Source: an uncultured Eubacteriales bacterium (lineage in GTDB: Bacteria; Bacillota; Clostridia; Oscillospirales; Acutalibacteraceae). From it: 64,000 bases of DNA. Positions 1 through 37,471 of the stretch are shown here, piece by piece (the first letter of the stretch is position 1; each line of letters opens with the position of its first letter). The notes under the pieces are model-generated. The model saw nothing but the letters and a program-made list of their open reading frames with translations, did not search any database and was not told the origin of the DNA. The stretch spans positions 1 to 64,000 of the forward strand of contig CAYRIX010000002.1 of assembly GCA_964424555.1 (NCBI GenBank), read 5' to 3'. The position numbers and the translations under genes are program-made.

Positions 1-303
1 CTGCCTCAAAGTTTGCCAAAGGAACTGCTCCTTCGGTCTGGGTGTGGTCGATCCATGTTGCGAAGCGGACGGTCGTTCCCTTTATACTGTCTGCTATTGT
101 TGCATACGGATCGAAGTTCTCCCACTCGGTACCTTGAACGCCTGAAGGCTTGGTTGCAATAACCTCGCTGTTGTTAGCGTCTCCCGTATTGGAAGCCTGC
201 GATGAGGTGGTGTCCTTATCGCCACCGCCACATGCGGTCAGGGCAAGAACGAGCATGCACATAGCAAAAACTAAGCACAAAGCTCTCTTAATGCCGGTTT
301 TCA
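1..303 (-). CDS. ABC transporter substrate-binding lipoprotein (N-terminal part; gene continues past the window start)
   Basis: Minus-strand ORF missing from the ORF track. ATG is the complement of 301-303, preceded by GGAGGAA. N-terminus MKTGIKRALCLVFAMCMLVLALTACGGG has a lipobox. The VRFATWIDHTQ segment is typical of family-1 sugar SBPs. Confidence 0.55.
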
Positions 304-497
304 TAAAAATTCCTCCTAAATGTATTGTAGAATGTACAGTGCTTCTGTATTCGGCCTCACAACAGATCAAAAAGACACAAGCACCCATACTTCTTTTTTA
401 TAATATCAAATATAAATCGGGTTTTCAATAAAGTTTTTAATCTTTCTTCCGAAAAAATAACCAAATTTCAACCCGATTTATTGTTGATATTTCAGTA

Positions 498-1508
498 TTA
501 ACCCGTGATACCTACACGGTCGATACTCTTGACGAACTTTTTCTGAAGAATTAGATAGACAATGAGTATCGGAATGATGAACATAAAGCAACCTGCCATC
601 ATGATAGCTATTCTCAACGGGTCATCACCTGAAAGCCTCAGTGTTCCGATAGCTTCGGCCGAGGTTATCTCGCTGAGCTTAACTGCCAGCGGCCACTTCT
701 CTGCGTAAAGGTACATCGAAGCCAACTGATAGTCATTCCAATGCCAAATAAGCGAGAAGACGGTAACTGTAGTGATAACAACGCTGGAGGACGGAAGTGC
801 AATTCTGATATAGGTCTTAAGAGGACCTGCACCATCGATCCAAGCTGCTTCCTCAAGCTCCTTGGGAAGTCCCTTAAAGAACTGAGTGTAGATGTAAATT
901 ATGATACCCGAACGGATGCCAACGCCCAATACTGCAGGCAACCAGAAGGTCCACACAGAGTTGAGAACATTGGGTCTTAGATCGATTCCTGTAAGGTCGT
1001 TAATCACGCCGAGCAATCCCAGAAAATCGAGCTTTGAGTAGTTCATGAATATCGGCAGCATCATCATCTGTGTAGGAACGAGGATGAGGAGGAACATGAA
1101 GAATGTGAGCACTCTCTTCTCCTTAAACTCGAAACGTGCCATACCGTATGCGCACAGTGAACAGCTGATGATCTGAATGCCTGCAGATACGATCTCGTAC
1201 AAAATCGTGCTCCAGATAGCACTGCCGTACTTCATAACATGCCATGCATATTCAAAGTTTTCTAAAGTGACATCCGAGGTTATCCAAATGATAGACGGGT
1301 CATAGAAGGAATCTCTTGTTCTGATTGCCGAGCTTATCATGTAGAACAGAGGATACAGGATTATGTATCCTATAGCAATAAGAACAACGTAGCGGAGAAG
1401 CGAAGTGAGAACTCCGTTCGCCTTAATCACTGCCTTGTAGCGGGATTCTTTGGTAGAATTTTTTGCTTTGTCATACAAGCCTTTTACTCTGCTTATAATG
1501 TTTCCCAT
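498..1508 (-). CDS. carbohydrate ABC transporter permease (MalG/LplC-like)
   Basis: Six predicted TM segments. EAA loop ELEEAAWIDGAGPLKTYIRIALP. Stop overlaps the start of the next permease. Confidence 0.85.
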   Translation of the reverse strand: MGNIISRVKGLYDKAKNSTKESRYKAVIKANGVLTSLLRYVVLIAIGYIILYPLFYMISSAIRTRDSFYDPSIIWITSDVTLENFEYAWHVMKYGSAIWSTILYEIVSAGIQIISCSLCAYGMARFEFKEKRVLTFFMFLLILVPTQMMMLPIFMNYSKLDFLGLLGVINDLTGIDLRPNVLNSVWTFWLPAVLGVGIRSGIIIYIYTQFFKGLPKELEEAAWIDGAGPLKTYIRIALPSSSVVITTVTVFSLIWHWNDYQLASMYLYAEKWPLAVKLSEITSAEAIGTLRLSGDDPLRIAIMMAGCFMFIIPILIVYLILQKKFVKSIDRVGITG

Positions 1509-2470
1509 TAGCTTCTACCTCCTGTATCCCAACGTTTTAAGAACAGCTTAGAGAATATAAACATAATCAATGCCATACATACGCCGACGATTATGAAGTA
1601 TATCCAAAGCATTGCAGATGCTGTACCGTAGCTTGAAGCGGCACCTCTCATAAGGGTGTAAGCCTGTGTCATAACCGCATTATTCTTAGCAGTGACCAGC
1701 TCAACCATTGTGAAGACGATAACCAGAATAAGCGTTCTGGACAGCATGGGGAGTGTGATAAACCAGAACTCCTCCCACTTTGTAGCACCCTCGACCTTAG
1801 AGACCTCATAGAGTGAATCTGGGATCGACTGCATACCTGAGATAAAGAGTACTATCTGGATACCGCTGTTCCAAACAAGGTTGAAAATATTGTTGAGCAA
1901 GCTGGCAAAGAAGGTTCCGATCTGTGTGGGCAAGGACAACCATGCTATAATGTCCTCTACCTTAAGCATGTTAGATGCGAACGAATCGGAAACACCTGCC
2001 GAAGAAATATCGCTTGTGGTGGTTTTAAACAGCAGGTCAATAACTACACCCGAAGCGATGATAACGGGAAGGAAGTAAAGACCTCTGAAGAAAAGTCTTC
2101 CACGGAACTTCTGATTAAGAAGCAGAGCCAAAATAAGGCTTATGATTACGATAACGGGAAGAGAGCCCGCCATGGAACCCAAGGAAGCCCATACATTATT
2201 TTGGAAGTTCGCATTGGTGTTCCATGCGTAATCGAAGTTCTTCATGCCTGCAAATTCGAAGTGGTATTCACCGCCCGAAAAGCTTACGTCACAGAAGGCA
2301 TAATAGAAAGACTGGAAGAGCGGAACCACAAAGAACAGGAGAAGACCCAGCTCCCAATGGAGAACAAAACGGCGTCCGTATGTGCTCTTGAGTGACTCTA
2401 TACCTCTGTATTTCTTCTTTTTCTTCAAAGAATTAAGAGGGGCACTGTTTTTCATATTATCTGCTGTCAT
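1508..2470 (-). CDS. carbohydrate ABC transporter permease (MalF/LplB-like)
   Basis: Polytopic. Basic N-terminus KKKKYRG then LplB-like TM1. Conserved EVSKVEGATKWEEFWFITLPM loop. Confidence 0.8.
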   Translation of the reverse strand: MTADNMKNSAPLNSLKKKKKYRGIESLKSTYGRRFVLHWELGLLLFFVVPLFQSFYYAFCDVSFSGGEYHFEFAGMKNFDYAWNTNANFQNNVWASLGSMAGSLPVIVIISLILALLLNQKFRGRLFFRGLYFLPVIIASGVVIDLLFKTTTSDISSAGVSDSFASNMLKVEDIIAWLSLPTQIGTFFASLLNNIFNLVWNSGIQIVLFISGMQSIPDSLYEVSKVEGATKWEEFWFITLPMLSRTLILVIVFTMVELVTAKNNAVMTQAYTLMRGAASSYGTASAMLWIYFIIVGVCMALIMFIFSKLFLKRWDTGGRS

Positions 2471-2473
2471 CTC

Positions 2474-4771
2474 TTATGCCCCCTTTACTGTAAAATCGCT
2501 TGCTGCGACCGTGATATCGCCCTCGGTGTAATCGGTGCTTCCGTAGTTTACGTATACGGTAACACCGTTGTCGAAGGTCGTAACTCTGACATCATCTGTG
2601 AGTATCTTATGATCGACTATCTTAGCACCGTTGACCGAATCAAAATAGCTCTTGTATTCTGCAATATTTGCTTCAATGGTCTCTCGAGCGCCACGCTCGA
2701 TCGTATCGTCCCAATACACAGAGCCGTAGAAAACATTCTGTGCCGAGGTAATAAGGTCGGTATCGTACTCACCGATAAGGGTATAGGTAAGACCTAAGCC
2801 CGACTCAACCGCCTTAAGAAGATTGGTGCGGTCGTTAGTGGAGAGATTGATCGAGGTACCCGACATGGAAACCGAGCCCTTAAAGACTATCTGATAGAAA
2901 GGAACGTCTGCCTCAAAAGAACGGTACTTTGAGGACTGCGTCGGTACATCGTATACATGAGAGCAAAGTGCTGCTGCAAAGGCATTGGCGTCACTGCCCG
3001 CTACCTTGTAGCCATCGGTCTTGTATGCACCGATGATTGCACCGACCTGATCGTCGGTATGTGCTCTTGAGTAGTATTGCTCATCGCAGTAATCAGAGTA
3101 GGTAATACTTGTCAAAGTATCAAGGCTGATACCCGGAAGCTTCCATTCTTTTGCAGCCTCGTTAATATTGGAGGCGACCTCGGACCACTTGGAACGAGAT
3201 ACAAGATAGTATGTGCGAAGCTTCTTATTAGGCGTTCTCAGGTTGTAGGAGAAGTAGTTAAGCTCGGTAAAGCTGCCGTTAGCTGCATCTGCCTTTCCAA
3301 AGCCAGTGGAAACTCCGCCGCCCGAACTGCTGAAGCGAACCATGTCAAAGTTCATGTAAAGGTTGATACCGTTACTGTTGGAATAGTCAACAAGCTTTTT
3401 GATATCGTCCTCATCGCCGAATACTTCATTTATCTCATAGTTACCTGCGACAACTCCGATATCGTTACCGCTTGAACCGAAGCCCACAAGGTTGACGTTA
3501 ATATTGTCAAGCTTGGTTACTTCCTTGACATCCTTAACGATATCGTAAGCCTGTTCAAGAGTGGTTGCCGAAAGCATTGCATCACTCGGAATACCGAAAT
3601 GGAATTCCTTAGTCTCAATACCGCCAACCAGCTTAAGGTTAAGCAACGAATCGTTGGACTTTTCACCGCTCAAAGAGCCTGTTTCGGTGAGATAATCACG
3701 GTAGGTATTTGCCATACCTACATATGAAGCATCGTCTCCGTAGAGCGGGTAGAAGCCGACACAGATCTTGTCGCTTGTAAAAGCATCCGCAAAGATCTTA
3801 GTCTTGACTATGGTTGAGGTGAACAGTGACTGAATGACCTCCTGATAGCCTCTGATATGGAACTCAGAGCTGATATAGGAGTAGCCCGTGAGCTTCTGAG
3901 CTATAACAGTGCTGATACGTGCCGTCTCTGCACCCTCTTTGATGATTGCACAAACACCCTTATCGCCGTTGACTGCGCCGTATACGGGCATTCTGACGGT
4001 CTCGGTGTTGGTTGCATTTTCAAACTGTGTAACGTTAGCATCCTGTCCATATACTACCTCGGTAAGCTCAACAGCAGCATCCTTAGTATTGTCGACTACG
4101 GGACGAACCAAAGCGCCTGAGCCCGAGGGAGTGAACAGATAGTAGCCATCGGTATCCGCATTATTATTGGAGACCGAGCAGAAGAACGGTGCAATGGTCA
4201 CACCACAAACATTGTAATCGTCATTCTCGGTAATTCCGTAAGGATCGACCGAAACATCGACACCTTTATCGGTAAGGGTAAAGGTAACGGGTACAGAAAA
4301 CGCACGGTCCTCAAAGTAACAGGTCATCACAAGACCATCTGCAATAGCCTTGACCGAATATGTACCCTTGTCGATAGACATGGCATAAGCGTTTGTCTCT
4401 TCTTCAAGGAGGTTGGAGGTTGCATAGTACTGTACAATGATGGGAGACTTTACTCTCGGGTGAGCGCTGACCTTTGAGCCCTCACCGTCAACACTGTAGT
4501 CGTACTGCGAGTTGAGCGCATCCTCGGGGATGTAGCTCCACTCGGTCTCGGTCACCTTGTCAAAAAGGATAACGCATTCATCATCTGCATTCCAGATCAA
4601 GCTGTAACGGTCGTTCTCGGCCACACAGGTGGTCTCGAGACGGTCAAGCTCTTCGGGAATTGCAAAATATTCTGCAGCTGCACGATCACTCGAGCAACCA
4701 ACTCCGCAAAGGAGGAGGGCCGAACAAAGCAGCAAACACAGAACTGAACCTAAAATTCGTTTGAACTTCAT
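2474..4771 (-). CDS. large secreted lipoprotein, unknown function (possibly glycan-active)
   Basis: Signal peptide plus lipobox (LLLCGVGCSS). 765 aa with no TM segments. Strong RBS AAGGAGGAG. Lies between the two permease pairs. Confidence 0.7.
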   Translation of the reverse strand: MKFKRILGSVLCLLLCSALLLCGVGCSSDRAAAEYFAIPEELDRLETTCVAENDRYSLIWNADDECVILFDKVTETEWSYIPEDALNSQYDYSVDGEGSKVSAHPRVKSPIIVQYYATSNLLEEETNAYAMSIDKGTYSVKAIADGLVMTCYFEDRAFSVPVTFTLTDKGVDVSVDPYGITENDDYNVCGVTIAPFFCSVSNNNADTDGYYLFTPSGSGALVRPVVDNTKDAAVELTEVVYGQDANVTQFENATNTETVRMPVYGAVNGDKGVCAIIKEGAETARISTVIAQKLTGYSYISSEFHIRGYQEVIQSLFTSTIVKTKIFADAFTSDKICVGFYPLYGDDASYVGMANTYRDYLTETGSLSGEKSNDSLLNLKLVGGIETKEFHFGIPSDAMLSATTLEQAYDIVKDVKEVTKLDNINVNLVGFGSSGNDIGVVAGNYEINEVFGDEDDIKKLVDYSNSNGINLYMNFDMVRFSSSGGGVSTGFGKADAANGSFTELNYFSYNLRTPNKKLRTYYLVSRSKWSEVASNINEAAKEWKLPGISLDTLTSITYSDYCDEQYYSRAHTDDQVGAIIGAYKTDGYKVAGSDANAFAAALCSHVYDVPTQSSKYRSFEADVPFYQIVFKGSVSMSGTSINLSTNDRTNLLKAVESGLGLTYTLIGEYDTDLITSAQNVFYGSVYWDDTIERGARETIEANIAEYKSYFDSVNGAKIVDHKILTDDVRVTTFDNGVTVYVNYGSTDYTEGDITVAASDFTVKGA

Positions 4772-4787
4772 TATAATCTCCTCCTTC

Positions 4788-6971
4788 TTAGAATAGTTTG
4801 AGTATCTCGGTATAAATGGTACCTACAAATCCTCCAAGCTGCTGCAACAGAACTGCAACGGCGATAAGCAGGAATATTACTATGGCACAACCGAACAGGG
4901 TCAGCAGTGTAGTACCGATGAACTTCATTACACCGTAGTCATGCACGATTATCGAGCCTGCGGTCAACAGAATCAATGTATATCCTGTGCAAATTACGGT
5001 CAAAACGCTGAGGAAAGCAGCCTCGTCGGGAACAAGGATGTTCGAGCAAATGATGTAAATAAGGCTTCCCAGCAACGACGGAATAAGGCTGTAGCTTATT
5101 ACCGTGAAAATTTCCTTGATCTTACCCTTACCGCTGAACAGTGTACATACTGCCCAGTTAGTTACGGTCCACAGAATAACCAGACCTGCTGTTTTGGCAA
5201 GGATCAAAAGTGCGTTGTAGCTGGACGGGTCGAAATATGTGAATGCGAAGCCGCCCATTGTTGTTTCCATGACGTCGAAGACGTAATAGAGAGCAATTAT
5301 CACGAGACATATGGGAATCGAGGTAAGACCCTTCTCCTTCATATCACGGAAGTTCTCGAAGGGATGTGTAATCATGGTTGCGGCAAGGTGAGCCTTCTCG
5401 TTCTTGATAAGTCTTACCTTCTTCTTGGTGGAGTAAACCAACAGAGCAATAAGAGCTGCTATCAAAACAACTGCAACAATAATTACCAGCGTGAAGTTTT
5501 CACGCAACCACTCGGTACGTACGCTGTCAAAAGCGAGAGCATATGTCTCACGGTCGTAGCCCTGCTCAGCAAGCTCTATAGACTTATTCATGTAGGTTGC
5601 CGAAAGCTCAGCATCCTCGGTAGTCTGACCCATTGCGTAGTAAGCTCTTGCAAGACCTGCGTAGGCCATCTGACAGTTGCGGTCAGCGGCAAGCACATCG
5701 GTCCACTCCTGCATGGCTTCCTCGTAATCGCCGACAACAGTCTTAGCCTGAGCCGTCTTGATGAGCTTTCCGTGCTCGGTAATATTGAACACGGTAACGG
5801 TATCCTGATTGTTATCAGTGATAATTACCGACTGGGTAGCGAGATTGTAGCTGATAGAACTGGGGTTGTAGAAGGTTCCGTCCTGAAGGCCGCCCTTAAG
5901 ACCGCCACCGAATGCCGAAACAAGGTTACATTCGCTATCATAAATATATATTCTGCCGTAAGTAGCATCGATGGTATAAACGAAACCGTCGTTATCTGCT
6001 GCAACACCAATCAAGCTCTGAGTACGCAAGCTCTTAGTGGTGGGGTTGCTGCCAACCTCGTCATCAACGAAGTTAATGCTGTCAGAGGGCAAAATATTGG
6101 TTCCGCCCGGATTAAGGCGCTTTATCTGAGCCGACTGACTTGTCGCACCGGTTGAGCTGGTTGCGGTATACACGAAGCCTTCGCCGTCAACCCAAAGGTC
6201 GGAGAAGGTGTACGGCAGAGAACGGGTCATCTCGGCACGCTTTTCGTTGTTCATGAACAATCTGTTCCACAGGGTGGTAAGTGCCTGTGTAAAGGTAGCG
6301 GGAACATCGTTAGCACCGTAGAAGCCAAGGAACTCATCCTCAGGTGAGTAAAGGATAGCACCGTAGTACGAACCGTTACTGAGAATGTAAACATATCCCT
6401 TTTGGTCAACTGCAACCTTGACGGGCTGATAGTTGAAGCCTGTGGGGATGAGGTGAGAATCCGGCAGAGTGTAAAGTCTTATAAGCTTGCCTTCAGCATC
6501 GCATTTAATAACACGCTGATGCTGGGTATCGGCAATATAGACGTTTTCAGCTTCATCAACAAAGATGCCCTTGGCCTTCAAGAAGTCTAATCTGGTGCCA
6601 TCCTCATCAAGAACATAGGAAAACTGGCTCTTAATATTATACTCTTCATCAAGGAGTAATACTCTGGACGCACCGCCGTCGAGAACATAGGTAATTCCCG
6701 AGTCTGATACATGAGCATCGTCGATAGTAGAGCTGGCCGAACAGCCAAGATCAAGAGCAGTCAGCACCTTGCCTGTTTCATACATAGGCTTGGTAGGAAC
6801 GACTCGGTTGGTCTGACCTGTAAAATTGTACCAATATGTGTAGGAATCATAGCCTATCTCGTCGGTCTTTTCAGAAACGGCTGAAACACCGATCACAGGG
6901 ACGAGCACGAGAACAGCCATCACACAAAGCAGGACACGGATAAGGAGCTTGCCAAAATTTGTTTTCTTCAT
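4788..6971 (-). CDS. NHL-repeat beta-propeller / TPR-like / Yip1-domain membrane protein
   Basis: Start re-set to MKKTNF (RBS AAGGAGGG, 7-nt spacer). N-terminal signal anchor. About six NHL-like blades (ENVYIADTQHQRVIKCD, KGYVYILSNGSYYGAILY, NDGFVYTIDATYGRIYIYD). A TPR-like helical segment. One TM segment followed by a five-TM Yip1-like C-terminal domain. Confidence 0.75.
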   Translation of the reverse strand: MKKTNFGKLLIRVLLCVMAVLVLVPVIGVSAVSEKTDEIGYDSYTYWYNFTGQTNRVVPTKPMYETGKVLTALDLGCSASSTIDDAHVSDSGITYVLDGGASRVLLLDEEYNIKSQFSYVLDEDGTRLDFLKAKGIFVDEAENVYIADTQHQRVIKCDAEGKLIRLYTLPDSHLIPTGFNYQPVKVAVDQKGYVYILSNGSYYGAILYSPEDEFLGFYGANDVPATFTQALTTLWNRLFMNNEKRAEMTRSLPYTFSDLWVDGEGFVYTATSSTGATSQSAQIKRLNPGGTNILPSDSINFVDDEVGSNPTTKSLRTQSLIGVAADNDGFVYTIDATYGRIYIYDSECNLVSAFGGGLKGGLQDGTFYNPSSISYNLATQSVIITDNNQDTVTVFNITEHGKLIKTAQAKTVVGDYEEAMQEWTDVLAADRNCQMAYAGLARAYYAMGQTTEDAELSATYMNKSIELAEQGYDRETYALAFDSVRTEWLRENFTLVIIVAVVLIAALIALLVYSTKKKVRLIKNEKAHLAATMITHPFENFRDMKEKGLTSIPICLVIIALYYVFDVMETTMGGFAFTYFDPSSYNALLILAKTAGLVILWTVTNWAVCTLFSGKGKIKEIFTVISYSLIPSLLGSLIYIICSNILVPDEAAFLSVLTVICTGYTLILLTAGSIIVHDYGVMKFIGTTLLTLFGCAIVIFLLIAVAVLLQQLGGFVGTIYTEILKLF

Positions 6972-6984
6972 ATCTTTGCCCTCC

Positions 6985-7947
6985 TTATTCCTTAATACCT
7001 GCACTACTCATGGATTCCATAACGTTACTCTGAGAAATCAGATAAACTATTATTGGCGGTAGCATGAGTATACACGTAACAGCCATAGCACTACCCGAAC
7101 GGGCGATACCGCCGGCCGTTATCTGTCCCATGATGGTCGGCAAGGTCTTCAGTGCCTCGCTGAAGATGGTACCGCCCGGTACCGATGCCCAAACATCACG
7201 GAAAGTAAAGAGGGTCAAGGTCAGCCACATCGGCTTAACAATGGGCATTACTATTCTCCAGAAGATTCTGAAATAGCCCGCACCGTCGATCTTGGCCGCT
7301 TCGAGCAATGCATTAGGTAACGCACCCTCCATATACTGTTTCATAAGGAAGACACCCATTGTTGACGCAAAGTGCGGCAGTATATATACCCAATATGTAT
7401 CAACTATGTGGATGCTTGTATATATAATGTAACGTGGGATGTTGAGGGTGTAACCGTTAAACAAAAGCGAAAACTGGATGATGTAGAATATTGTCTTCTT
7501 GAACTTGATATTCGACTTACACAGAACGAATGCAGCCATCGAAGCGATAACGACATAAAGGAAAGTCGTACCGAGGGTTACAAACAAGCTGTTGAAGACG
7601 TATCTTGACAACGGGATTCTAAGATTTGAAAGCAGCTCGGGCAGTGCGGCATAGTTCGCAAAGGTCGGGCGCTTAACGAAGAACTGGGGCGGGAAGATCA
7701 TGATCTCGTCCAAGGGCTTCAAGGATGTACAAATACAGTAGATGAGCGGCAGGATAGAGAAGCAGCCTGCTGCGATGATAAAGAAGAAGTAGAAGAAATT
7801 ACCTACTTTTGAGCGTGTATAACGCTTTGCCTCAGACTTCGAAGCACGTCTGCGCTTCGGAGCTTTGGTTTCGTTGACCGAGTCACGCAAAGCCTTGGCA
7901 CCGCTCGGTAAAATCAAAACTTCCTGTTTTCTTCTGAATAAACTCAC
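6985..7947 (-). CDS. carbohydrate ABC transporter permease (MalG/LplC-like)
   Basis: EAA loop LLEAAKIDGAGYFRIFWRIVMP. Polytopic. Confidence 0.85.
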   Translation of the reverse strand: MSLFRRKQEVLILPSGAKALRDSVNETKAPKRRRASKSEAKRYTRSKVGNFFYFFFIIAAGCFSILPLIYCICTSLKPLDEIMIFPPQFFVKRPTFANYAALPELLSNLRIPLSRYVFNSLFVTLGTTFLYVVIASMAAFVLCKSNIKFKKTIFYIIQFSLLFNGYTLNIPRYIIYTSIHIVDTYWVYILPHFASTMGVFLMKQYMEGALPNALLEAAKIDGAGYFRIFWRIVMPIVKPMWLTLTLFTFRDVWASVPGGTIFSEALKTLPTIMGQITAGGIARSGSAMAVTCILMLPPIIVYLISQSNVMESMSSAGIKE

Positions 7948-7959
7948 TATCCCACCTCC

Positions 7960-8877
7960 TTACTTTCCTGTCATATTGAGTAGTTTTCCTATCAATAGTC
8001 GGAAGACGACCATCATCAGGAATAGCACAACCGAGACCGATGACGCATAGCCCAGCTCGTATCGTACCGTACCAAGGTCCTGCATATGTGATACTATCGT
8101 ATCTGCCGCATAGCTGACGCTTGGGAAACCTGCAAGCTCTATCGCTATTGCGCTGATAGAGAATGCACTGGATATCTGCATAACAGCACTAAAGAGAAGC
8201 ATGTGCTTCATAGTGGGCAGGGTTATGTACCAAAGCTCCTGCCAACGGCTCTTGATACCGTCAATAGAGCCTGCTTCATAAAGCTCCTGATTGACGTTCT
8301 GCAAGCCTGAAATGTTGGAAAGGAAGGAAACACCCATGCTGGACCAAAGCTGAACTGCGATGATTATCGGCTTTATGTATTCAGCGGTCGACAGCCATGT
8401 AACAGGCTCGGTAATAAGACCGAGTGAAAGAAGTGCCGAGTTGATGTAACCGTAGCTGTCACTTGAGAAAGCAACCGTCCAAATGAAGTGTGCGTTACCG
8501 ACAAGTGCGGGAGCGTAGAACATGAAGGACAGAAGCGTACGGACCATCGGAGAAAATTCATTAATAAACCATGCAAGAACAAAGGAGAGAAGGAAGCCTG
8601 CAGGTCCGCAAATGATGGCGAATAACATAGTGTTCTTGAACACAACAGGGAAAACGTCGTCATCAAGGAACATTCTCATGTAGTTACCCAATCCTGCGAA
8701 GGAAGGGGAATTGACCATATCGAAGTTTGTAAAGCTGAGAACTATTGAAGAAGCTATCGGCAATACAAGGAAGACGATAAAGAAGATGAAGAACGGTGAA
8801 AGCATGATATATGACGGAAGCTGTTCACGCAATAAAGCTCTTCTTTTGATCTTTTTCAAATTTACACTGTTTTCCAT
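7960..8877 (-). CDS. carbohydrate ABC transporter permease (MalF/LplB-like)
   Basis: RBS GGAGGAGGG. LplB-like N-terminus. Conserved loop ELYEAGSIDGIKSRWQELWYITLP. Confidence 0.8.
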   Translation of the reverse strand: MENSVNLKKIKRRALLREQLPSYIMLSPFFIFFIVFLVLPIASSIVLSFTNFDMVNSPSFAGLGNYMRMFLDDDVFPVVFKNTMLFAIICGPAGFLLSFVLAWFINEFSPMVRTLLSFMFYAPALVGNAHFIWTVAFSSDSYGYINSALLSLGLITEPVTWLSTAEYIKPIIIAVQLWSSMGVSFLSNISGLQNVNQELYEAGSIDGIKSRWQELWYITLPTMKHMLLFSAVMQISSAFSISAIAIELAGFPSVSYAADTIVSHMQDLGTVRYELGYASSVSVVLFLMMVVFRLLIGKLLNMTGK

Positions 8878-8895
8878 ATATACCCTCCTCCTTTC

Positions 8896-11800
8896 TTACT
8901 TTTTATACTCTGAAATCTTACGTGCGATCTCATTGTCAGCAACTTCGCCCCACTCAAGCATGGCGTCTTTTTCGTTGCTTTCGTTATTGAGAACTGCCCA
9001 GTAAGCCTGATCGACTGCACGAGATACGTAGTAGCCGCCCGGCAGTTCGGGAAGCTCCTCGACCTTAGACCACTGCTCAAGCAGTATCTGGAGGTCGTCA
9101 GCATTCCAGGAATATGAGCTGAATGCCTCTTTGTTGGCAGTTGCAGTACGGGATACAACACCAAGTATAGACTCAACGTTATTATTGTATCTGAGCTGAG
9201 TGTCAGCCGAAGTCCACCAACAGATGAACTCCCATGCGCCATCCTTGTTGGGTGAACGCTTAACAACACCGCATCCGGTTCCCGATCCTGCGATGGAGTT
9301 ATTGATTCCGGTCATTTCGCCGGCCTCATCATAGACGGGATTGCCGGGGATAGTTGTGATCTTCCAGCGTCCCTGAATTTCAGGAGCTGCCTGAGTAAGC
9401 TGAGTATATGTGGTATAGCTCGAGATTCCCAAGGGAGCGGTACCTGTACGGAAACGGTTGTAGAAGTCGATCTGCTTTTCAATACCGTACTTGGTATAGA
9501 AGTCAGTCCACTGAGTAAACGCTGCTATAGCGTCGCCGCCTGTGAGATTGGTCTTGTTACGGCCGTCATTATAAAGAGTAACATCATTCTGGGTCAGCAT
9601 GGTCGGGAACATATGCAAGCTACCCATACCCGCATTGACCGTAGTAGTGGATGCTATCTTGGTGTACGGCACATAAGCGTCCATGTTATTACGCTGAAGA
9701 ATTGTGGCGGCATCAAGGAACTCGGTCCATGTCCAACCCAATCCGTCGTTGGCGGTGGCGGGATCTTCAATTCCAAGATCCTCAAATATATCGGTACGGT
9801 AGTACATTATAAAGAAGCCCTGAGTATCGGGGAGAGCAAACAACTGCATATCGCCCGTACCGTCATCGTACCAATAAGGAGTGGATGCATGGTCGTTTAC
9901 AATGTCAACATAATCGCCATTCTCGTCATATTTACCTTGGAAGCGCTTAAGAACGGTCTTGTAGTCCAACAGATATGTGGAGCCGTCATCTACAGTGGAG
10001 TACTTTGGATCTACCTCTGCCGAGAAATTAGTTAGATCATACAAAGCACCACGCATACCGAGGTTAACAGGATCGGTGCGGCTCATATGGAGTCTTATAT
10101 CAGGGAAGTTACCTGCAAGAAGACCGTTGATAAGCGAAGCGTTAACTATTTCAAGCTCAACGCCGATACCTGTCTCATAGGTGAACGAGTCCTGAATGAG
10201 GTTGCTCAGAACCTGTGTCTGATCACGTCCCCAGTTAACCCATATACGGACCGAGCCTCTGGCATCGGCCGCAACAGAGCCACCGATAGAGGTGAAATCA
10301 TCGGTAAAGGAGGCGAAGAAACGCTTACAGCTAAAGGCGAATGACTTACCGAAGGATGAGGTATTGTCCTTAAAGCCCTTGGACGGAGATGCAAGCTGCA
10401 TCTGATCAACGCTCAAAGGCATCGTCTTCATTTCATACAGCCAAGAACATACAGTGGTGTAGTTGGAATAGAAGTCCGATACATAGTTCTGAGCAGTGTA
10501 CTGGTTATCGTACATCTCCTTGAGAACACGGGCCATATTGTTCAATGCTGCGATGTATTTGTTGCTTCGGTCACCCGAAAGAGCCTTCATGTCCGAAGAA
10601 AGCTTGTTAAGGTCTTCATAGCAGCCGAGCAAGGTCTCTTGGAAGTTCGGTATCTGTCTGAACAGATCATAGTCACGGTTCGGGTCGGGAGAGTCACTGG
10701 TGATCATGATGATATCAATATAGGTATCACCGATAACATCAACAATCTCCTCGAGTCTTGAATAGAACTCAGCAGTCTCACCGAGGGTGACGGTAAGAGC
10801 AAAGGTGTGCGTACCCTTGGTAAGATAGAACTTATAAGGCTCTACCTTTTCTTCGCTTACTGTCTCACCTATAGTTTTGAAGCTCCAATCGGTGCAGTAG
10901 TCAAATCTGAGGTTCTTGCACTCCTCGAACGGAATTACTCCGTCGATAGCCAATGAGCGGTATGTGAAGCCGTCGATAATGGCAGCCTGCTTATAATTGA
11001 TGCCAAAGGTATACAGACCATCAGCAGGGACCTCGACCATCCATGTAATGGTCTCGCCGGGGACCTGCCAGTTAGTGCTACCTATGTAGTTAAGAATAGA
11101 CTTAACGGGGCTGTTGGGAGTAATATCCGACGAGCTGTTGTCTGCCTTAGCAACAAGCGAGTTGGTTGACTTAAGCCAAGCATCCTCACCCTCAAATTCG
11201 ATAACCTCGCCCGAATAATCGGCTTTGCCGTTATTGGCAGCCGAATACTCGTCGTAAGTAACAACAGTCTCGGGAACCTTTAATATAATACTTGCAAGGG
11301 CAACGGGCTCGTATACAGATTCAACAGTGATGGTGTGTTTGCCTGCAGTAAGCAATACCTTGTAGGGGTCAGCAACGACACCGACAGGATCTACTGCATA
11401 CTGTGTGACAAACTGACCGTACTCAACCTGCTCGGGAGTAAGCTCATTTCCGATGGTATCAACACGAACATCACCTGCAGGCTTGTCAGCTGTGGAACCG
11501 CTGTTTACAAACATGCGGGGCAAAGACAATGCCTCAAGACCGGAATAAAGATATTTACCGTCGATCTTAATACCAAGCTCAACAGGGCTGGTGCTGCTCT
11601 TGTCGTCAGAGGTATCTGCAGTGCCGCCTGTCTTGGTAAGAGGAAGGTATGTAAAAGCAAGATTATAAATACCGTCCTCAGGAACCTCTACCTCATAGGT
11701 AACATAGCCCTGCTGCTGGAAAGTAAGATTATCCCTCCATGTAAGACAGGTCTTGCTCTCCTTCTTCTGAGATACAGCGTCCAACAGGACCTCATACTGC

Positions 11801-12093
11801 TCCTGTGACAAAACACTGACAGTACCGTCGGCACCCTCGTACTCATGCTCGGCCGCTTCTACATAGTTCAGCGGATCGATAACTATGTCTTCCTTGGCAT
11901 AGCTGCTTGAGGATATGGATTCGAGGTACTTGACATACTCGTCTGACACATCGCCGCCAGTAACTGTGTTCTCGGTTACGGGAGCATCACTGTTTTGTAC
12001 TTCCTCCGCCGAGGCAGGAAGCACAGCAAAAAGCGATACCATGAGCACGGTTACAAGAACAATGGCCAGCAATCGGATTTTACCAGAATTCAT
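8896..12093 (-). CDS. extracellular solute-binding protein (family 1, LplA-like) fused to an N-terminal extension of about 550 aa with tandem beta-sandwich repeats
   Basis: Start re-set to MNSGKIRLLAIVL (ATG with RBS GGTGAAGAA). Signal peptide. Two internal repeats (YEVEVPEDGIYNLAFTY and WMVEVPADGLYTFGINY). C-terminal ~500 aa is a clear family-1 SBP (FALPDTQGFFIMYYRTDIFEDLGI). Confidence 0.75.
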   Translation of the reverse strand: MNSGKIRLLAIVLVTVLMVSLFAVLPASAEEVQNSDAPVTENTVTGGDVSDEYVKYLESISSSSYAKEDIVIDPLNYVEAAEHEYEGADGTVSVLSQEQYEVLLDAVSQKKESKTCLTWRDNLTFQQQGYVTYEVEVPEDGIYNLAFTYLPLTKTGGTADTSDDKSSTSPVELGIKIDGKYLYSGLEALSLPRMFVNSGSTADKPAGDVRVDTIGNELTPEQVEYGQFVTQYAVDPVGVVADPYKVLLTAGKHTITVESVYEPVALASIILKVPETVVTYDEYSAANNGKADYSGEVIEFEGEDAWLKSTNSLVAKADNSSSDITPNSPVKSILNYIGSTNWQVPGETITWMVEVPADGLYTFGINYKQAAIIDGFTYRSLAIDGVIPFEECKNLRFDYCTDWSFKTIGETVSEEKVEPYKFYLTKGTHTFALTVTLGETAEFYSRLEEIVDVIGDTYIDIIMITSDSPDPNRDYDLFRQIPNFQETLLGCYEDLNKLSSDMKALSGDRSNKYIAALNNMARVLKEMYDNQYTAQNYVSDFYSNYTTVCSWLYEMKTMPLSVDQMQLASPSKGFKDNTSSFGKSFAFSCKRFFASFTDDFTSIGGSVAADARGSVRIWVNWGRDQTQVLSNLIQDSFTYETGIGVELEIVNASLINGLLAGNFPDIRLHMSRTDPVNLGMRGALYDLTNFSAEVDPKYSTVDDGSTYLLDYKTVLKRFQGKYDENGDYVDIVNDHASTPYWYDDGTGDMQLFALPDTQGFFIMYYRTDIFEDLGIEDPATANDGLGWTWTEFLDAATILQRNNMDAYVPYTKIASTTTVNAGMGSLHMFPTMLTQNDVTLYNDGRNKTNLTGGDAIAAFTQWTDFYTKYGIEKQIDFYNRFRTGTAPLGISSYTTYTQLTQAAPEIQGRWKITTIPGNPVYDEAGEMTGINNSIAGSGTGCGVVKRSPNKDGAWEFICWWTSADTQLRYNNNVESILGVVSRTATANKEAFSSYSWNADDLQILLEQWSKVEELPELPGGYYVSRAVDQAYWAVLNNESNEKDAMLEWGEVADNEIARKISEYKK

Positions 12094-12192
12094 TTCTTCA
12101 CCTTCAAAAAAGAGATTTAAACAATGCCCCTTGCAAGAGCAACAAAGCGAATTTGCAGACAAATATCCACTTTGCATAATGTTCTACGTAGT

Positions 12193-12221
12193 ATTATCTA
12201 ACAAATCGGTCATTTTGTCAA
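12193..12221 (-). promoter_or_regulatory. sigma-A-type promoter for the ABC operon (TTGACA-17-GATAAT)
   Basis: Minus-strand reading TTGACAaaatgaccgatttgttaGATAAT, about 95 nt upstream of the 12093 ATG. Confidence 0.4.
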
Positions 12222-12498
12222 TAACAATTTAGCAAAAATATACGAAATTCGGCAAAAAATTTTTATTTTTTATACCAACACTTATATGCAATTTTCCTTA
12301 TTTAGGTTTCGAGAAGACCTTTTCGTTGTCATATTGCACAAATTTTATCGCCACCTCCCACATGATATTCGAGTCCCCAATCGCTATCTACGGTACATTG
12401 TTACGCTTTAAGCGACATATTATCTAACATGTCCGACTCTTTTAAATAATATATATTGCAAAATGGCCGATTGAATGTTGATTTTGACCAATATGCAC

Positions 12499-12527
12499 AA
12501 AAAATCCGAGCTGTTTTACAGCTCGGA
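12499..12527 (-). terminator. intrinsic terminator of eno
   Basis: 9-bp stem TCCGAGCTG/CAGCTCGGA overlaps the eno stop codon and is followed on the minus strand by UUUUUU. Confidence 0.5.
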
Positions 12528-13736
12528 CTCAATTTTCAGCAGTCGATTGTATTTTGAAGTGCGGTCGGTACGGCAGGGAGCTCCCGACTTTATATATTCT
12601 GCACCCACGCCCACCGCAAGGTCGGCAATGAAGGTATCCTCGGTCTCGCCCGAGCGGTGTGAGATAACGGCGGTATAGCCCGCCTGCTTGGCAATTTCAA
12701 TGACCTCAAGCGTTTCGGACAGCGTGCCTATCTGGTTAAGCTTAACCAGAACGGCGTTGGCTATTCCCTGCTCTATCCCGCTTTTCAGACGCTCGGGGTT
12801 GGTCACAAACAGATCATCTCCCACAAGCATTGCCCTGCCTGACAGCTTTTGGGTCATGGTCTTCCAGCCCGAGTAATCCTCCTCGCTCAAGCCGTCTTCT
12901 ACCGAGATAATAGGATAATCACGGATAAGCCCCGATATCTTCTCGGTCAGACTTTGTGATGTCAGCGTTTCGCCGCACTTCGGCAAGCGGTATTCCCCAT
13001 CCCTATACCATTCGCTCGAGGCAACATCAAGAGCGATCTTAACGTCATCGGTTGAATATCCTGCGGTGCTGATACCCTTGATTATATACTCTATGACCTC
13101 ACGGTCATCACGGAGATCGGGTGAGAAGCCGCCCTCGTCTCCGACACCCGTAGATTTCCCCGCCGCCTTGAGTACGGTGCCTAACGCATGGTATACCTCA
13201 GCGCCTGCTCTGAGCTTTTCTGAAAAGCTTCCTTTGGTCGGCACTATCATGAATTCCTGAATATCGATATTATTGGCTGCGTGCGCTCCGCCGTTAAGAA
13301 TGTTCATCATCGGAGTAGGGAGTCTTAGCCCGCTTATTCCACCCAGATAGCGGTATAAGGGCACTCGGTAGTGACGTGCCGAGGCACGTGCCACAGCCAT
13401 TGATACGGCCAACATGGCATTAGCACCCAAATGGCTTTTGTTGGGTGTTCCGTCGAGCTTTATCAACTCACGGTCTATCTGTTTTTGATTAAGAGTGCCT
13501 ATCTCACGCAGGCGGGGTGCAATAACCGTGTTTATGTTGTTGACCGCCTTGCTTACACCCTTTCCGCAATATCTCTCACCGCCGTCACGCAGCTCATGTG
13601 CCTCGAATTTTCCCGTGGAAGCACCCGACGGAGCTATAGCCACCGCACGACAGCCGTCGCTGAGCATTACCTCTGCCGCAACTGTCGGATTACCTCTTGA
13701 ATCCAATACCTCAAGACCCTTGACCTCGATTATCAC
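12516..13736 (-). CDS. eno: enolase (phosphopyruvate hydratase)
   Basis: N-terminus MIIEVKGLEVLDSRGNPTV and conserved enolase core (SHRSGETEDTFIADLAV). Confidence 0.95.
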   Translation of the reverse strand: MIIEVKGLEVLDSRGNPTVAAEVMLSDGCRAVAIAPSGASTGKFEAHELRDGGERYCGKGVSKAVNNINTVIAPRLREIGTLNQKQIDRELIKLDGTPNKSHLGANAMLAVSMAVARASARHYRVPLYRYLGGISGLRLPTPMMNILNGGAHAANNIDIQEFMIVPTKGSFSEKLRAGAEVYHALGTVLKAAGKSTGVGDEGGFSPDLRDDREVIEYIIKGISTAGYSTDDVKIALDVASSEWYRDGEYRLPKCGETLTSQSLTEKISGLIRDYPIISVEDGLSEEDYSGWKTMTQKLSGRAMLVGDDLFVTNPERLKSGIEQGIANAVLVKLNQIGTLSETLEVIEIAKQAGYTAVISHRSGETEDTFIADLAVGVGAEYIKSGAPCRTDRTSKYNRLLKIESEL

Positions 13737-13935
13737 AAAATCATCCTTTCTGTCGCTGCTTAAAACCTATCTTTGAGCATATTTTTGACAGCAATGCGGT
13801 ATTTTATTAAAATTTAGGACTATTTATTCTGCAAAATCTGTAAAAGCTTAAAATTCGTTGACTTTTTAATGTAAAAGATTTATTATATATATTATAATAA
13901 TTACAGGATGTCAAAAACCAAACTGGAGGTTTTGT

Positions 13936-14661
13936 ATGAGCTACGGTCAATACCTGATAGCTGGTCTCAAGGTCGAGATGGAGGTAAACGGAGAAATGCT
14001 TCGTTCACGAAGCGAGAAATACCGTACCGAATTCGACGGAGAGCCTGATATGGTCATCGTTCCGTCAAGAGAAAATCTTGATCGCATGCAGAGTGATTAT
14101 CCGAGGCTGTCACCCGACGCCGTGGAGTACCTCGGTACAGGCTGTATGTTTTATTACAGATTGCTCAGGTTTGATGGCTTCCTGCTTCACTCCTCGACCA
14201 TAAGCTACAACGGTAAAGCGTACATATTCACGGCCGACAGCGGTACGGGTAAGTCGACCCACACTTCACTCTGGCGTCAATATCTTGACGGTGTTGTTAT
14301 GATAAACGACGACAAGCCTGCCATCAAGCTCATTGACGGACAGTTTCAGGCCATTGGAACACCGTGGAGCGGAAAGACCGACCAGAATGCCGATATCTCG
14401 GTGCCTGTTGGCGGTGTTGTATTGCTCCACCGTGGCAGTGTAAACACCATCCGCCCTGCAACAACGCTCGAAGCAATACCCTTTCTGATGCGTCAGACAC
14501 AGGTGCCCTCTAAGCCCGAAACCGTTGATATGCTGACCAACCTGTTGGACAAGTTCCTGCGCCAGACCCCGATATATGTGCTGGAATGTGATATGAGTGA
14601 GGATGCCGTTAAAACGTCCTTTGAAGCTTTAACGGGAACAAAATACGAAAAAAGGAAATAA
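13936..14661 (+). CDS. HPr-kinase C-terminal-domain-like P-loop protein (standalone, hypothetical)
   Basis: RBS GGAGG. Mid-protein Walker A FTADSGTGKSTHTSLW followed by INDDKPAIKLIDGQFQAIGTPW. Motif order matches the HprK-C/PEPCK-like kinase fold. Confidence 0.6.
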   Translation: MSYGQYLIAGLKVEMEVNGEMLRSRSEKYRTEFDGEPDMVIVPSRENLDRMQSDYPRLSPDAVEYLGTGCMFYYRLLRFDGFLLHSSTISYNGKAYIFTADSGTGKSTHTSLWRQYLDGVVMINDDKPAIKLIDGQFQAIGTPWSGKTDQNADISVPVGGVVLLHRGSVNTIRPATTLEAIPFLMRQTQVPSKPETVDMLTNLLDKFLRQTPIYVLECDMSEDAVKTSFEALTGTKYEKRK

Positions 14662-37340: not shown

Positions 37341-37471
37341 GGGATAATTTCCTCCTTATGTGAATTAACTTTAGCAAATATGGTATAAGCAGACAAGAAA
37401 GCCTACTTGTCCACGTACACATTAACTATACCACTTTTCAAGTGCGAAGTAAATAGTAAACTTTGAAAAAT

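What the first reader, a model, noticed from the sequence alone, without database searches (positions are those of the whole stretch)
1..12221. Twelve-kb operon with two complete permease pairs, no ATPase, two giant extracytoplasmic proteins and an embedded NHL/Yip1 membrane protein
Seven minus-strand genes run from the promoter at about 12.2 kb to 498, with spacings of -1 to 20 nt. A separately promoted SBP gene follows and runs off the window start. The gene order is SBP-fusion (1065 aa), permease, permease, NHL/TPR/Yip1 protein, 765-aa lipoprotein, permease, permease. CUT1-type importers normally have one permease pair. Here there are two, plus two very large cell-surface proteins and a non-transporter membrane protein in the middle. 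There is no nucleotide-binding-domain gene, so a shared MsmX-like ATPase elsewhere would be required. This looks like a Gram-positive polysaccharide-utilisation-style locus in which capture, possible processing and import are co-transcribed. The unusual accessory components make it the most likely undescribed system in the window.
Basis: partly seen in the sequence, partly recalled or inferred. Interest (0 to 1): 0.72.

Follow-up and report, generated by a model that had tools for sequence, protein, structure and literature searches.

The report
Conserved double-importer sugar-uptake gene cassette
This is one copy of a seven-gene cassette with fixed gene order, found in many gut Clostridia, that combines two sugar importers with an oversized sugar-binding protein, a predicted surface glycosidase of an unstudied family and an unusual membrane protein; I found no paper describing it.

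Summary
Seven tightly packed minus-strand genes (498..12093) encode:
- a 1065-aa fusion of a solute-binding protein (SBP) with extra N-terminal domains,
- permease pair 1,
- an NHL/TPR/Yip1 membrane protein,
- a 765-aa DUF5696 lipoprotein,
- permease pair 2.

A lipoprotein SBP gene starts 193 nt downstream and runs off the window. No transporter ATPase gene lies in the window or within 10 kb of 86 related loci.

The seven-gene order is identical in all 84 independent related loci, wherever the contig allows. This holds down to 32% identity and whether the search starts from DUF5696, the Yip1 protein or the giant SBP. Some genomes carry two or three copies.

All four permeases keep their ATPase-coupling (EAA) loops.

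Related loci are flanked by laminarinase-like GH16 lipoproteins (38/84), AraC regulators, a second SBP (31/70), GH36, GH2 and GH63-like enzymes, and giant surface proteins.

Best reading: the core of a Gram-positive glycan-utilisation locus, powered by a shared ATPase encoded elsewhere. The substrate, whether DUF5696 is catalytic, and the role of the Yip1 protein are inferred. No literature mentions DUF5696.

The parts
12193..12221 (-). Promoter-like site TTGACA-17-GATAAT upstream of the cassette
   Evidence: 11 of 12 consensus matches, the best minus-strand site in 1..14000. It leaves a leader of about 100 nt before the ATG at 12093. This is a consensus match only.
8896..12093 (-). Giant SBP fusion (1065 aa). 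Order of parts: Sec-type signal peptide, two beta-sandwich (CBM-like) domains, a four-helix bundle, and a CUT1 oligosaccharide-binding SBP domain.
7960..8877 (-). Permease A1 (UgpA/MalF-like membrane subunit of importer 1)
   Evidence: BPD_transp_1, 32.8 bits. UgpA and GlcT hits. The EAA loop EAGxIDGIxxRWQELxYITLP is conserved in 79 orthologues. Median identity to orthologues is 66%.
6985..7947 (-). Permease B1 (UgpE/MalG-like membrane subunit of importer 1)
   Evidence: NCBIfam UgpE E 8.7e-19 and GlcU E 4.9e-17. The EAA loop EAAkIDGA is conserved. GTG start with an AAGGAGG ribosome-binding site.
4788..6971 (-). NHL/TPR/Yip1 membrane protein (727 aa). Order of parts: signal peptide, extracellular six-bladed NHL-type propeller, TPR region, one transmembrane helix, then a C-terminal Yip1 domain with several transmembrane helices.
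   Evidence: Pfam Yip1, 56.7 bits, at residues 544-713 of the 738-aa ORF; also NHL and TPR_19. Hydropathy peaks at 9-27, 494-512 and then five between 549 and 707. The ectodomain matches the PknD NHL sensor propeller 1rwi at E 2e-8. 684 homologues were found; the 120 listed are 698-774 aa long.
2474..4771 (-). DUF5696 lipoprotein (765 aa). Predicted three-domain GH129-like glycosidase: N-terminal beta-sandwich, (beta/alpha)8 barrel, C-terminal beta domain.
1508..2470 (-). Permease A2 (MalF/UgpA-like membrane subunit of importer 2)
   Evidence: BPD_transp_1, 26.5 bits. The variant EAA loop EvskVEGATkWEEFWFiTfP is conserved in 82 orthologues. It aligns with A1 over only 52 residues, at 36% identity.
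498..1508 (-). Permease B2 (UgpE/MalG-like membrane subunit of importer 2)
   Evidence: BPD_transp_1, 53.4 bits. UgpE E 4e-20. The EAA loop EAAwiDGA is conserved. 20% identical to B1. Its start overlaps the A2 stop by one base.
400..428 (-). Promoter-like site TTGAAA-17-TATTAT (with extended TG) ahead of the second SBP gene
   Evidence: 10 of 12 matches. This is a consensus match only.
1..304 (-). 5' part of a conventional lipoprotein SBP gene (SBP2), cut off by the window start
   Evidence: Translation MKTGIKRALCLVFAMCMLVLALTACGGGD..., with a GGAGG ribosome-binding site. Full-length orthologues of 435-516 aa carry SBP_bac_1 or SBP_bac_8. A small SBP lies within 600 nt downstream of the cassette in 31 of 70 loci. 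A lipobox is present in 36 of 37.

Best explanation
The region is one copy of an ancient seven-gene cassette with fixed gene order. I read it as the uptake core of a Gram-positive glycan-utilisation locus in Acutalibacteraceae and related gut and rumen Clostridia.

Proposed mechanism, with the status of each step:

(a) Capture. The giant SBP is exported. Its two CBM-like beta-sandwiches hold a polymer or large oligosaccharide at the cell surface, and its C-terminal CUT1 SBP domain binds the oligosaccharide product. The fold is shown; the binding is inferred.

(b) Endo-cleavage. In many related loci, neighbouring GH16 lipoproteins probably make the first cuts. No such gene lies beside the cassette in this window. 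This rests on association only.

(c) Trimming. The DUF5696 lipoprotein has a GH129-like three-domain fold with conserved carboxylates. It probably trims or debranches the captured glycan next to the transporters. The fold is shown; catalysis is inferred.

(d) Import. Two very different CUT1 permease pairs, both with intact ATPase-coupling EAA loops, import two kinds of product. Pair 1 would be served by the giant SBP. Pair 2 would be served by the downstream lipoprotein SBP where one exists, as in this window. Two intact membrane pairs are shown; the pairing with the SBPs is inferred.

(e) Energy. Both importers would be powered by a shared MsmX/MsiK-type ATPase encoded elsewhere. Its absence from the loci is shown; its identity was not tested.

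(f) Scaffold. The NHL/TPR/Yip1 protein would act as a membrane-embedded scaffold or accessory. It may retain the giant SBP, which has no lipid anchor, and organise the components. The only precedent is the Yip1 protein YknW, which modulates assembly of the YknXYZ ABC exporter. This step is inferred and is the weakest.
For: - The gene order is identical in all 84 independent related loci: 76 are complete and 8 are cut only by contig ends. DUF5696 identity there runs from 77% down to 32%.
- The same cassette is reached from the Yip1 protein and from the giant SBP.
- Each permease scores far higher against its positional orthologue than against its paralogue (minimum margin 97 bits). All four EAA loops are conserved.
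- E182 and D560 are invariant. D244, D476, D622 and E656 are at least 53/56 conserved.
- Flanking genes in related loci: GH16 in 38/84, a small SBP in 31/70, AraC regulators in 19 (sequence search) to 26 (clustering), GH36 in 10, GH63-like in 8, GH2 in 4.
- The flanking GH16s are closest to laminarinase-type enzymes (E 1e-15 to 2e-18).
- No ABC ATPase ORF lies in any of the 86 loci.
- The giant SBP lacks a lipobox in 69/75 orthologues. The small SBPs have one in 36/37 and DUF5696 in 69/83.
- The membrane subunits are much more conserved (median 50-66% identity) than the three extracytoplasmic proteins (36-44%), as expected if specificity diversifies outside the membrane.
- Two or three copies occur in some genomes.
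- YknW precedent: PMC4887032.
Against: - There are no expression, binding or activity data for any component.
- DUF5696 has no sequence-level link to any GH family. Pfam at E<=10 returns only DUF5696, and a profile search of PDB sequences gives nothing significant.
- The position right after barrel strand 4, where GH13, GH31 and GH36 carry their nucleophile (from my knowledge of those families, not tested by superposition), is not conserved: residue 551 is D in 23, S in 15 and R in 6 of 56 sequences. The catalytic residues could not be mapped, because no structural alignment or model coordinates were available.
- GH129, GH101 and GH36 act on alpha-linkages, while the flanking GH16s act on beta-linkages. 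No single substrate follows from this.
- The window copy has no adjacent glycoside hydrolase or regulator; its upstream neighbour is enolase.
- In 39 of 70 loci there is no second SBP, so the partner of permease pair 2 is unclear there.
- The window protein's own N-terminal domains give no CBM hit at all.
- The Yip1 scaffold role rests on analogy only.
Confidence: 0.68

Rival explanations
1. DUF5696 is not an enzyme. It would be a catalytically inactive glycan-binding lipoprotein built on a glycosidase scaffold. It might act as a surface glycan-binding protein, or as the substrate-delivery partner of permease pair 2 in the many loci that have no second SBP.
For: - The gene lies immediately upstream of permease pair 2, with a median gap of -1 nt across 83 loci.
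- 39 of 70 loci have no small SBP downstream.
- The canonical post-strand-4 position is not conserved.
- No sequence link to any GH family was found.
Against: - Several carboxylates (E182, D476, D560, D622, E656) are invariant or nearly so across 56 sequences that are only 32-78% identical to the window protein. This pattern is typical of an active site.
- The nearest structural neighbours are all active enzymes.
- I know of no type I ABC importer that uses a TIM-barrel protein in place of an SBP.
Confidence: 0.2
2. The cassette serves the cell's own envelope rather than nutrition. It would recycle or remodel a cell-surface glycan, or work as a sensory device in which the PknD-like NHL propeller detects an extracellular ligand and gates transport.
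For: - The closest solved relative of the ectodomain by sequence is the sensor domain of the kinase PknD.
- The window copy sits among housekeeping genes, a few kb from a Wzy_C-type gene, with no catabolic enzyme nearby.
- Giant surface proteins with Flg_new repeats follow the cassette in 34 loci.
Against: - The Yip1 protein has no recognisable signalling output domain.
- Related loci carry AraC regulators and catabolic GH16, GH36, GH2 and GH63-like genes.
- Multi-copy diversification within a genome fits nutrient foraging better than envelope upkeep.
Confidence: 0.08
3. Two unrelated ABC importers and two unrelated genes merely lie next to each other, with no functional unit.
For: - The two permease pairs are only distantly related.
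- A second SBP has its own promoter-like site.
Against: - The seven-gene order is invariant in all 84 independent loci and in the extra loci reached from other components, down to 32% identity and in several paralogous copies per genome.
- The gaps are -1 to 18 nt.
Confidence: 0.02

Closest known systems
CUT1-family (TC 3.A.1.1) oligosaccharide ABC importers of Gram-positive bacteria that share an orphan ATPase (MsmX in Bacillus, MsiK in Streptomyces; from my own knowledge)
   Same: - Permease pairs of the MalF/UgpA and MalG/UgpE types with EAA loops.
- A family-1 SBP fold.
- No ATPase gene in the operon.
   Different: - Two very divergent permease pairs in one operon.
- An SBP enlarged by about 600 residues of beta-sandwich and helical domains, and lacking a lipid anchor.
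- Two conserved non-transporter genes set between the pairs.
Gram-positive polysaccharide utilisation loci (gpPULs, as defined for Roseburia/Eubacterium rectale; from my own knowledge)
   Same: Taken across related loci, the elements are a carbohydrate transporter, glycoside hydrolases (GH16, GH36, GH2) and an AraC regulator, with several paralogous loci per genome.
   Different: - The core is a rigid seven-gene module, not a loose assortment.
- The in-cassette enzyme candidate belongs to an uncharacterised family.
- This window copy has no adjacent regulator or known glycoside hydrolase.
GH129 alpha-N-acetylgalactosaminidase NagBb (5wzn) and the GH129-like 3,6-anhydro-D-galactosidase DagB/ZgGH129 (5opq, 8rzk)
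   Same: - The same three-domain layout over the whole chain: N-terminal beta-sandwich, TIM barrel, C-terminal beta domain.
- In DagB a residue outside the barrel (Asp202) belongs to the catalytic machinery. DUF5696 has an invariant Glu182 in the same domain.
   Different: - Only 13-15% identity, and no HMM-level relationship.
- Catalytic residues not mapped.
- DUF5696 is a lipoprotein embedded in a transporter operon.
YknW of the Bacillus YknWXYZ four-component ABC exporter
   Same: A bacterial Yip1-family membrane protein encoded with, and modulating the assembly of, an ABC transporter (PMC4887032).
   Different: - YknWXYZ is a MacB-type exporter with a membrane-fusion protein and its own ATPase.
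- Here the partners are type I importer permeases.
- The Yip1 domain here carries an extracellular NHL propeller and TPR region of about 460 residues. I have not seen such a region described for YknW, but I did not compare the two architectures.
Bacteroidota SusC/SusD-type utilisomes (from my own knowledge)
   Same: Functional analogy only. A conserved transport core is encoded together with surface glycan-binding and glycan-cutting lipoproteins, and is multiplied and diversified within a genome.
   Different: No homology. There is no outer membrane and no TonB-dependent transporter. A physical complex has not been shown here.

Membership tests
CUT1 / type I ABC carbohydrate importer | Two membrane subunits of the BPD_transp_1 family, each with an EAA coupling loop | tested here: met
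   Found four times, that is two pairs. Pfam and NCBIfam hits; EAA loops conserved in about 80 orthologues each.
CUT1 / type I ABC carbohydrate importer | Extracytoplasmic family-1 solute-binding protein | tested here: met
CUT1 / type I ABC carbohydrate importer | Cognate nucleotide-binding subunit (MalK/MsmX type) | tested here: not met
   None in the window: the only ABC ATPase there is ABC-F type. None within 10 kb of the cassette in the 86 loci scanned. Whether one is encoded elsewhere in the genome cannot be tested with a 64-kb window.
Gram-positive PUL (gpPUL) | At least one polysaccharide-degrading enzyme gene in the locus | tested here: inconclusive
   In the window the only candidate is DUF5696, which has a glycosidase fold but unproven activity. 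Related loci carry GH16 in 38/84 cases.
Gram-positive PUL (gpPUL) | Carbohydrate transport system in the locus | tested here: met
   Two CUT1 permease pairs and two SBP genes.
Gram-positive PUL (gpPUL) | Transcriptional regulator in the locus | tested here: not met
   None next to the window copy; the upstream neighbours are enolase and a SpoU methylase. AraC regulators occur in 19-26 related loci. The downstream side lies outside the window.
Glycoside hydrolase family 129 (also GH101 and GH36) | N-terminal beta-sandwich, (beta/alpha)8 barrel and C-terminal beta domain | tested here: met
Glycoside hydrolase family 129 (also GH101 and GH36) | Significant sequence similarity to family members | tested here: not met
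   12-15% identity in structural alignments to the GH129 entries. No PDB sequence hit. No Pfam hit other than DUF5696, even at E<=10.
Glycoside hydrolase family 129 (also GH101 and GH36) | Catalytic nucleophile Asp and general acid/base in the barrel | tested here: inconclusive
   D560 is invariant, and D476, D622 and E656 are nearly so. They could not be superposed on D435/E478 of NagBb or D486/E517 of DagB. The position right after strand 4 (residue 551) varies.
Yip1 family (PF04893) | Yip1 multi-pass membrane domain above the Pfam threshold | tested here: met
   56.7 bits against a cut-off of 28.6, covering profile positions 3-172 of 173. Five hydrophobic segments between 549 and 707.
YknWXYZ-type four-component exporter | MacB-type permease, its own ATPase and a membrane-fusion protein encoded with the Yip1 protein | tested here: not met
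   The partners here are BPD_transp_1 importer permeases. No membrane-fusion protein or ATPase is present.

The most novel reading that the evidence does not exclude
The seven products would assemble into one surface machine, a Gram-positive counterpart of the Bacteroidota utilisome. In it, the Yip1 domain would bridge two different ABC importers in the membrane. Its NHL/TPR ectodomain would hold the giant SBP, which has no lipid anchor, by that protein's conserved helical bundle. A glycosidase of a new family (DUF5696) would cut the captured glycan directly above the two translocation pores. Yip1 proteins would then be general organisers of bacterial ABC transporters, and DUF5696 would found a new GH family.
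Probability: 0.22. Interest if true: 0.85.

Novelty: new variant of a known kind. Interest (0 to 1): 0.62.

Why it matters
Acutalibacteraceae and related Oscillospirales are abundant in human, livestock and rumen microbiomes, are mostly uncultured, and their glycan foraging is poorly understood.

- The cassette has a fixed order and occurs in several copies per genome. It could serve as a genomic marker for their glycan-utilisation loci, as SusC/SusD pairs do in Bacteroidota.
- It gives DUF5696 a testable function. A profile of the family finds 5,728 protein clusters (at 50% identity) in public data, and no paper in the searched library mentions it.
- It gives a bacterial Yip1 protein a defined genetic partner.
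- It raises a mechanistic question: why are two divergent importers, one giant unanchored binding protein and a glycosidase-like lipoprotein kept together so strictly?

If DUF5696 is active, it would probably define a new glycoside hydrolase family.

Tried and rejected
- Sequence search of DUF5696 against PDB chains: no hit at E<=1. A profile search gave only insignificant matches, the best at E 0.36 to a GH13 strand-3 region.
- Permissive Pfam scan (E<=10) of seven diverse DUF5696 proteins: only DUF5696, with no GH101 or GH129 family.
- NCBIfam: nothing for DUF5696 or the giant SBP.
- Pfam on the window protein's own N-terminal sandwiches and helical bundle: nothing meaningful. The CBM-like label therefore rests on weak hits in homologues and on the predicted fold.
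- The afdb50 fold library was unavailable.
- Rfam found no leader RNA or riboswitch anywhere in the window.
- The terminator scan found nothing convincing inside the operon or between permease B2 and the second SBP.
- Literature searches for DUF5696, PF18952 and Yip1 combined with ABC or glycoside hydrolase terms found nothing relevant.
- A motif search for ABC ATPases in 86 loci found none. The 627-aa ORF at 39804..41687 was considered as the missing ATPase and rejected as ABC-F type.
- The longer 1093-aa start for the SBP fusion was rejected, because it would begin 8-16 nt after the -10 hexamer and lacks a signal peptide at its N-terminus.
- A recent tandem duplication of one importer was rejected, because the pairs share only 20-36% identity over partial alignments.
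- Per-domain conservation did not single out an obvious interface.

Full report
**1. Observation**

The ORF map and the junction analysis confirm seven co-directional minus-strand genes between 498 and 12093:

| Gene | Coordinates | Size |
|---|---|---|
| SBP fusion | 8896..12093 | 1065 aa from MNSGK |
| Permease A1 | 7960..8877 | 305 aa |
| Permease B1 | 6985..7947 | 320 aa |
| NHL/TPR/Yip1 protein | 4788..6971 | 727 aa |
| DUF5696 lipoprotein | 2474..4771 | 765 aa |
| Permease A2 | 1508..2470 | 320 aa |
| Permease B2 | 498..1508 | 336 aa |

- The gaps are 18, 12, 13, 16, 3 and -1 nt. Six of the seven genes have a GGAGG-type ribosome-binding site; the SBP fusion has a weaker GAAGGTGAAG.
- The best minus-strand promoter-like site in the region is TTGACA-17-GATAAT at 12221..12193.
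- A further gene starts at 304, 193 nt after permease B2. It has its own promoter-like site at 428..400. It encodes a lipoprotein (lipobox LTAC) whose full-length orthologues are ordinary 435-516-aa SBPs.
- No transporter ATPase gene is present. The only Walker A plus LSGGQ ORF in the whole window (39804..41687) is an ABC-F type protein.
- Rfam finds nothing in the window.
- The surrounding genes are housekeeping: enolase, SpoU methylase, RibF, TruB, IF-2, NusA, PFOR, SecA and others.

**2. A conserved unit, not a chance juxtaposition**

A scan of one genome per species with a DUF5696 alignment found 344 stretches that encode a relative. The best 80 loci were fetched.

- They come almost entirely from Acutalibacteraceae, Oscillospiraceae and unclassified Clostridia MAGs of human, ruminant, rabbit and chicken guts.
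- I extracted ORFs and compared them with the seven window proteins. Of 84 independent loci, 76 carry all seven genes in the same order and on the same strand.
- The other eight are cut by contig ends. None has a gene missing or inserted inside the block.
- This holds while DUF5696 identity falls from 77% to 32%.
- Entering from the Yip1 protein or from the giant SBP leads to the same arrangement.
- Several genomes hold two or three copies, for example JAZNJD01, CANQSG01 and DJET01.
- A profile search of 1.84 billion representative proteins finds 5,728 DUF5696 clusters at E<=1e-3, of which 3,540 are at E<=1e-30. The 150 listed are all 728-785 aa long.

**3. The parts**

*Permeases*
- All four keep their EAA coupling loops in about 80 orthologues each, so both pairs should dock an ATPase.
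- The two pairs are ancient and distinct. A1 and A2 align over only 52 residues at 36% identity. B1 and B2 are 20% identical.
- Every orthologue scores at least 97 bits higher against its positional counterpart than against the paralogue.

*DUF5696*
- It has a conserved lipobox.
- Its AlphaFold2 model is confident (pLDDT 90.3, pTM 0.90). It shows an N-terminal beta-sandwich, a (beta/alpha)8 barrel and a C-terminal beta domain.
[quoted passage not shown] GH101 (17.5) and GH36 (16.6) follow, then many GH13, GH31 and GH36 barrels.
- Foldseek agrees: E 4.6e-35 to 5opq and 3.8e-26 to 5wzn.
- The published description of DagB gives the same three-domain layout and catalytic residues Asp202, Asp486 and Glu517 (PMC5698469).
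- The relationship is structural only (13-15% identity).
- Conserved carboxylates exist: E182 and D560 are invariant, and D244, D476, D622 and E656 are at least 53/56 conserved. The residue right after strand 4 (551) is variable.
- I could not superpose the structures. Catalysis is therefore plausible but not demonstrated.

*Giant SBP*
- The model (pLDDT 86) shows a signal peptide, a disordered linker, two beta-sandwiches (about 60-275 and 295-436), a four-helix bundle (438-556) and a CUT1 SBP domain (613-1065).
- In homologues both sandwiches give weak CBM_35, CBM_6 and Golvesin_C matches, mostly below threshold. The window protein's own sandwiches give none.
- It lacks a lipobox in 69 of 75 orthologues. 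The small downstream SBPs have one in 36 of 37. This is unusual for a Gram-positive SBP.

*Yip1 protein*
- It has a signal peptide and an NHL propeller whose nearest solved relative by sequence is the PknD sensor domain (E 2e-8).
- A TPR stretch, one transmembrane helix and a Yip1 domain with five hydrophobic segments follow.
- It has no recognisable enzymatic or signalling output domain.

**4. Context elsewhere**

Clustering the flanking ORFs of the related loci and scanning representatives gives these recurrent neighbours:

| Neighbour | Loci |
|---|---|
| GH16, often lipoproteins, 46 ORFs | 38 of 84 |
| Small SBP within 600 nt downstream | 31 of 70 |
| AraC-family regulators | 19-26 |
| Giant (1300-2200 aa) surface proteins with Flg_new repeats | 34 |
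| GH36 alpha-galactosidase | 10 |
| GH63/MGH1-like | 8 |
| Xylose-isomerase-like TIM barrels | 7 |
| GH2 | 4 |

- The GH16s are closest to laminarinase-type (endo-beta-1,3-glucanase) structures, at modest E-values of 1e-15 to 2e-18.
- From my own knowledge, that subfamily also contains O-glycan-active enzymes, so the substrate class stays open.
- None of the 86 loci scanned, each with up to 10 kb of flank, contains an ABC ATPase ORF.

**5. Interpretation**

The best-supported reading is a carbohydrate-uptake core of a Gram-positive polysaccharide-utilisation locus. It comprises two CUT1 importers, a CBM-bearing capture and binding protein, a surface glycosidase candidate and a Yip1 accessory protein. 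It would be powered by a shared orphan ATPase, as is usual for CUT1 systems of Firmicutes (from my own knowledge).

- The membrane subunits are far more conserved (median identity 50-66%) than the three extracytoplasmic proteins (36-44%). This fits a constant translocation core with diversifying substrate-facing parts.
- The Yip1 protein's role is the least certain. The only precedent I found is YknW, a Yip1 protein that modulates assembly of the YknXYZ ABC exporter (PMC4887032).
- Because the giant SBP has no lipid anchor, some retention mechanism is needed. Binding to the TPR/NHL ectodomain is an attractive but untested idea.

Rivals:
- DUF5696 is a non-catalytic binding or delivery protein for pair 2.
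- The cassette serves the cell envelope or acts as a sensor.
- The genes are adjacent by chance. The neighbourhood data effectively exclude this one.

**6. Novelty**

- Every building block belongs to a known class: CUT1 permeases, a family-1 SBP, a GH129-like fold, and Yip1, NHL and TPR domains. The overall logic, surface capture and cutting followed by ABC import, is that of known Gram-positive glycan loci.
- What appears undescribed is the rigid seven-gene module itself: the pairing of two divergent importers, the unanchored giant SBP, and the two accessory proteins.
- No paper in the searched library mentions DUF5696 or PF18952.
- I therefore rate it a new variant of a known kind. A specialist in gut glycan metabolism would want to follow it up. 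The main claims (substrate, enzyme activity, complex formation) remain to be tested.

Noticed in passing
Related loci, e.g. L009:14583-18494, L023:15667-19716, L086:17857-22115, L002:16104-19910: Giant (1300 to more than 2100 aa) surface proteins with Listeria-Bacteroides (Flg_new) repeats follow the cassette or its second SBP on the same strand in 34 of 84 loci. The L009 example has a hydrophobic C-terminal tail. In close relatives of the window this gene comes right after the small SBP, so it probably lies just beyond the window start.
   Followed up: partly
Related loci, e.g. L040:690-2132, L085:2651-3613 and 17683-19476, L086:3725-5221: Laminarinase-like GH16 genes, many with lipoprotein signals, flank the cassette in 38 of 84 loci, sometimes on both sides. 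The window copy has enolase in that position instead.
   Followed up: partly
L046, L047, L059 (one MAG, JAZNJD01); L023, L056, L071 (CANQSG01); L025, L066 (DJET01): Single genomes carry two or three diverged copies of the whole seven-gene cassette, as expected for paralogous loci with different specificities.
   Followed up: partly
window 498-2470 versus 6985-8877: Permease pair 1 is clearly more conserved across loci (median 66% identity) than pair 2 (50-51%). The MalF-like subunit of pair 2 has a variant but conserved coupling loop, EVSKVEGA, in place of EAA-x-DGA.
   Followed up: partly
window 2474-4771 (DUF5696 residue 551): The residue right after barrel strand 4, where related barrels carry the nucleophile, is variable (D23, S15, R6 of 56). 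An invariant Y-S-D motif lies nine residues later (558-560). The active-site geometry may differ from GH13, GH31 and GH36.
   Followed up: partly
L087:17126-20686: In a JGI metagenome copy the DUF5696 gene is longer (815 aa), and the following permease A2 (365 aa) has no Pfam hit on record. This looks like a more divergent branch of the cassette.
   Followed up: no
window 15485-19542 (+): A 961-aa ORF with no Pfam match at E<=0.001 overlaps by 4 nt the start of a Wzy_C (O-antigen ligase/polymerase-like) membrane protein gene. A 241-aa ORF at 13936-14661 also has no match.
   Followed up: no
window 33837-37388 (+): A 1183-aa open frame runs antisense to the pyruvate:ferredoxin oxidoreductase gene (33804-37340, minus strand). 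It has no Pfam hit and is most likely a shadow ORF.
   Followed up: partly
window 39804-41687 (-): The only ABC ATPase in the window is a two-cassette ABC-F type protein (ABC_tran_Xtn and ABC_tran_CTD domains). It is not a candidate energiser for the importers.
   Followed up: yes
window 62385-63986 (-) and 43014-45239 (+): A 533-aa protein with BNR/Asp-box repeats (sialidase-like propeller) and a 741-aa membrane protein of the sulfatase family lie elsewhere in the window. They are unrelated to the cassette as far as I checked.
   Followed up: no
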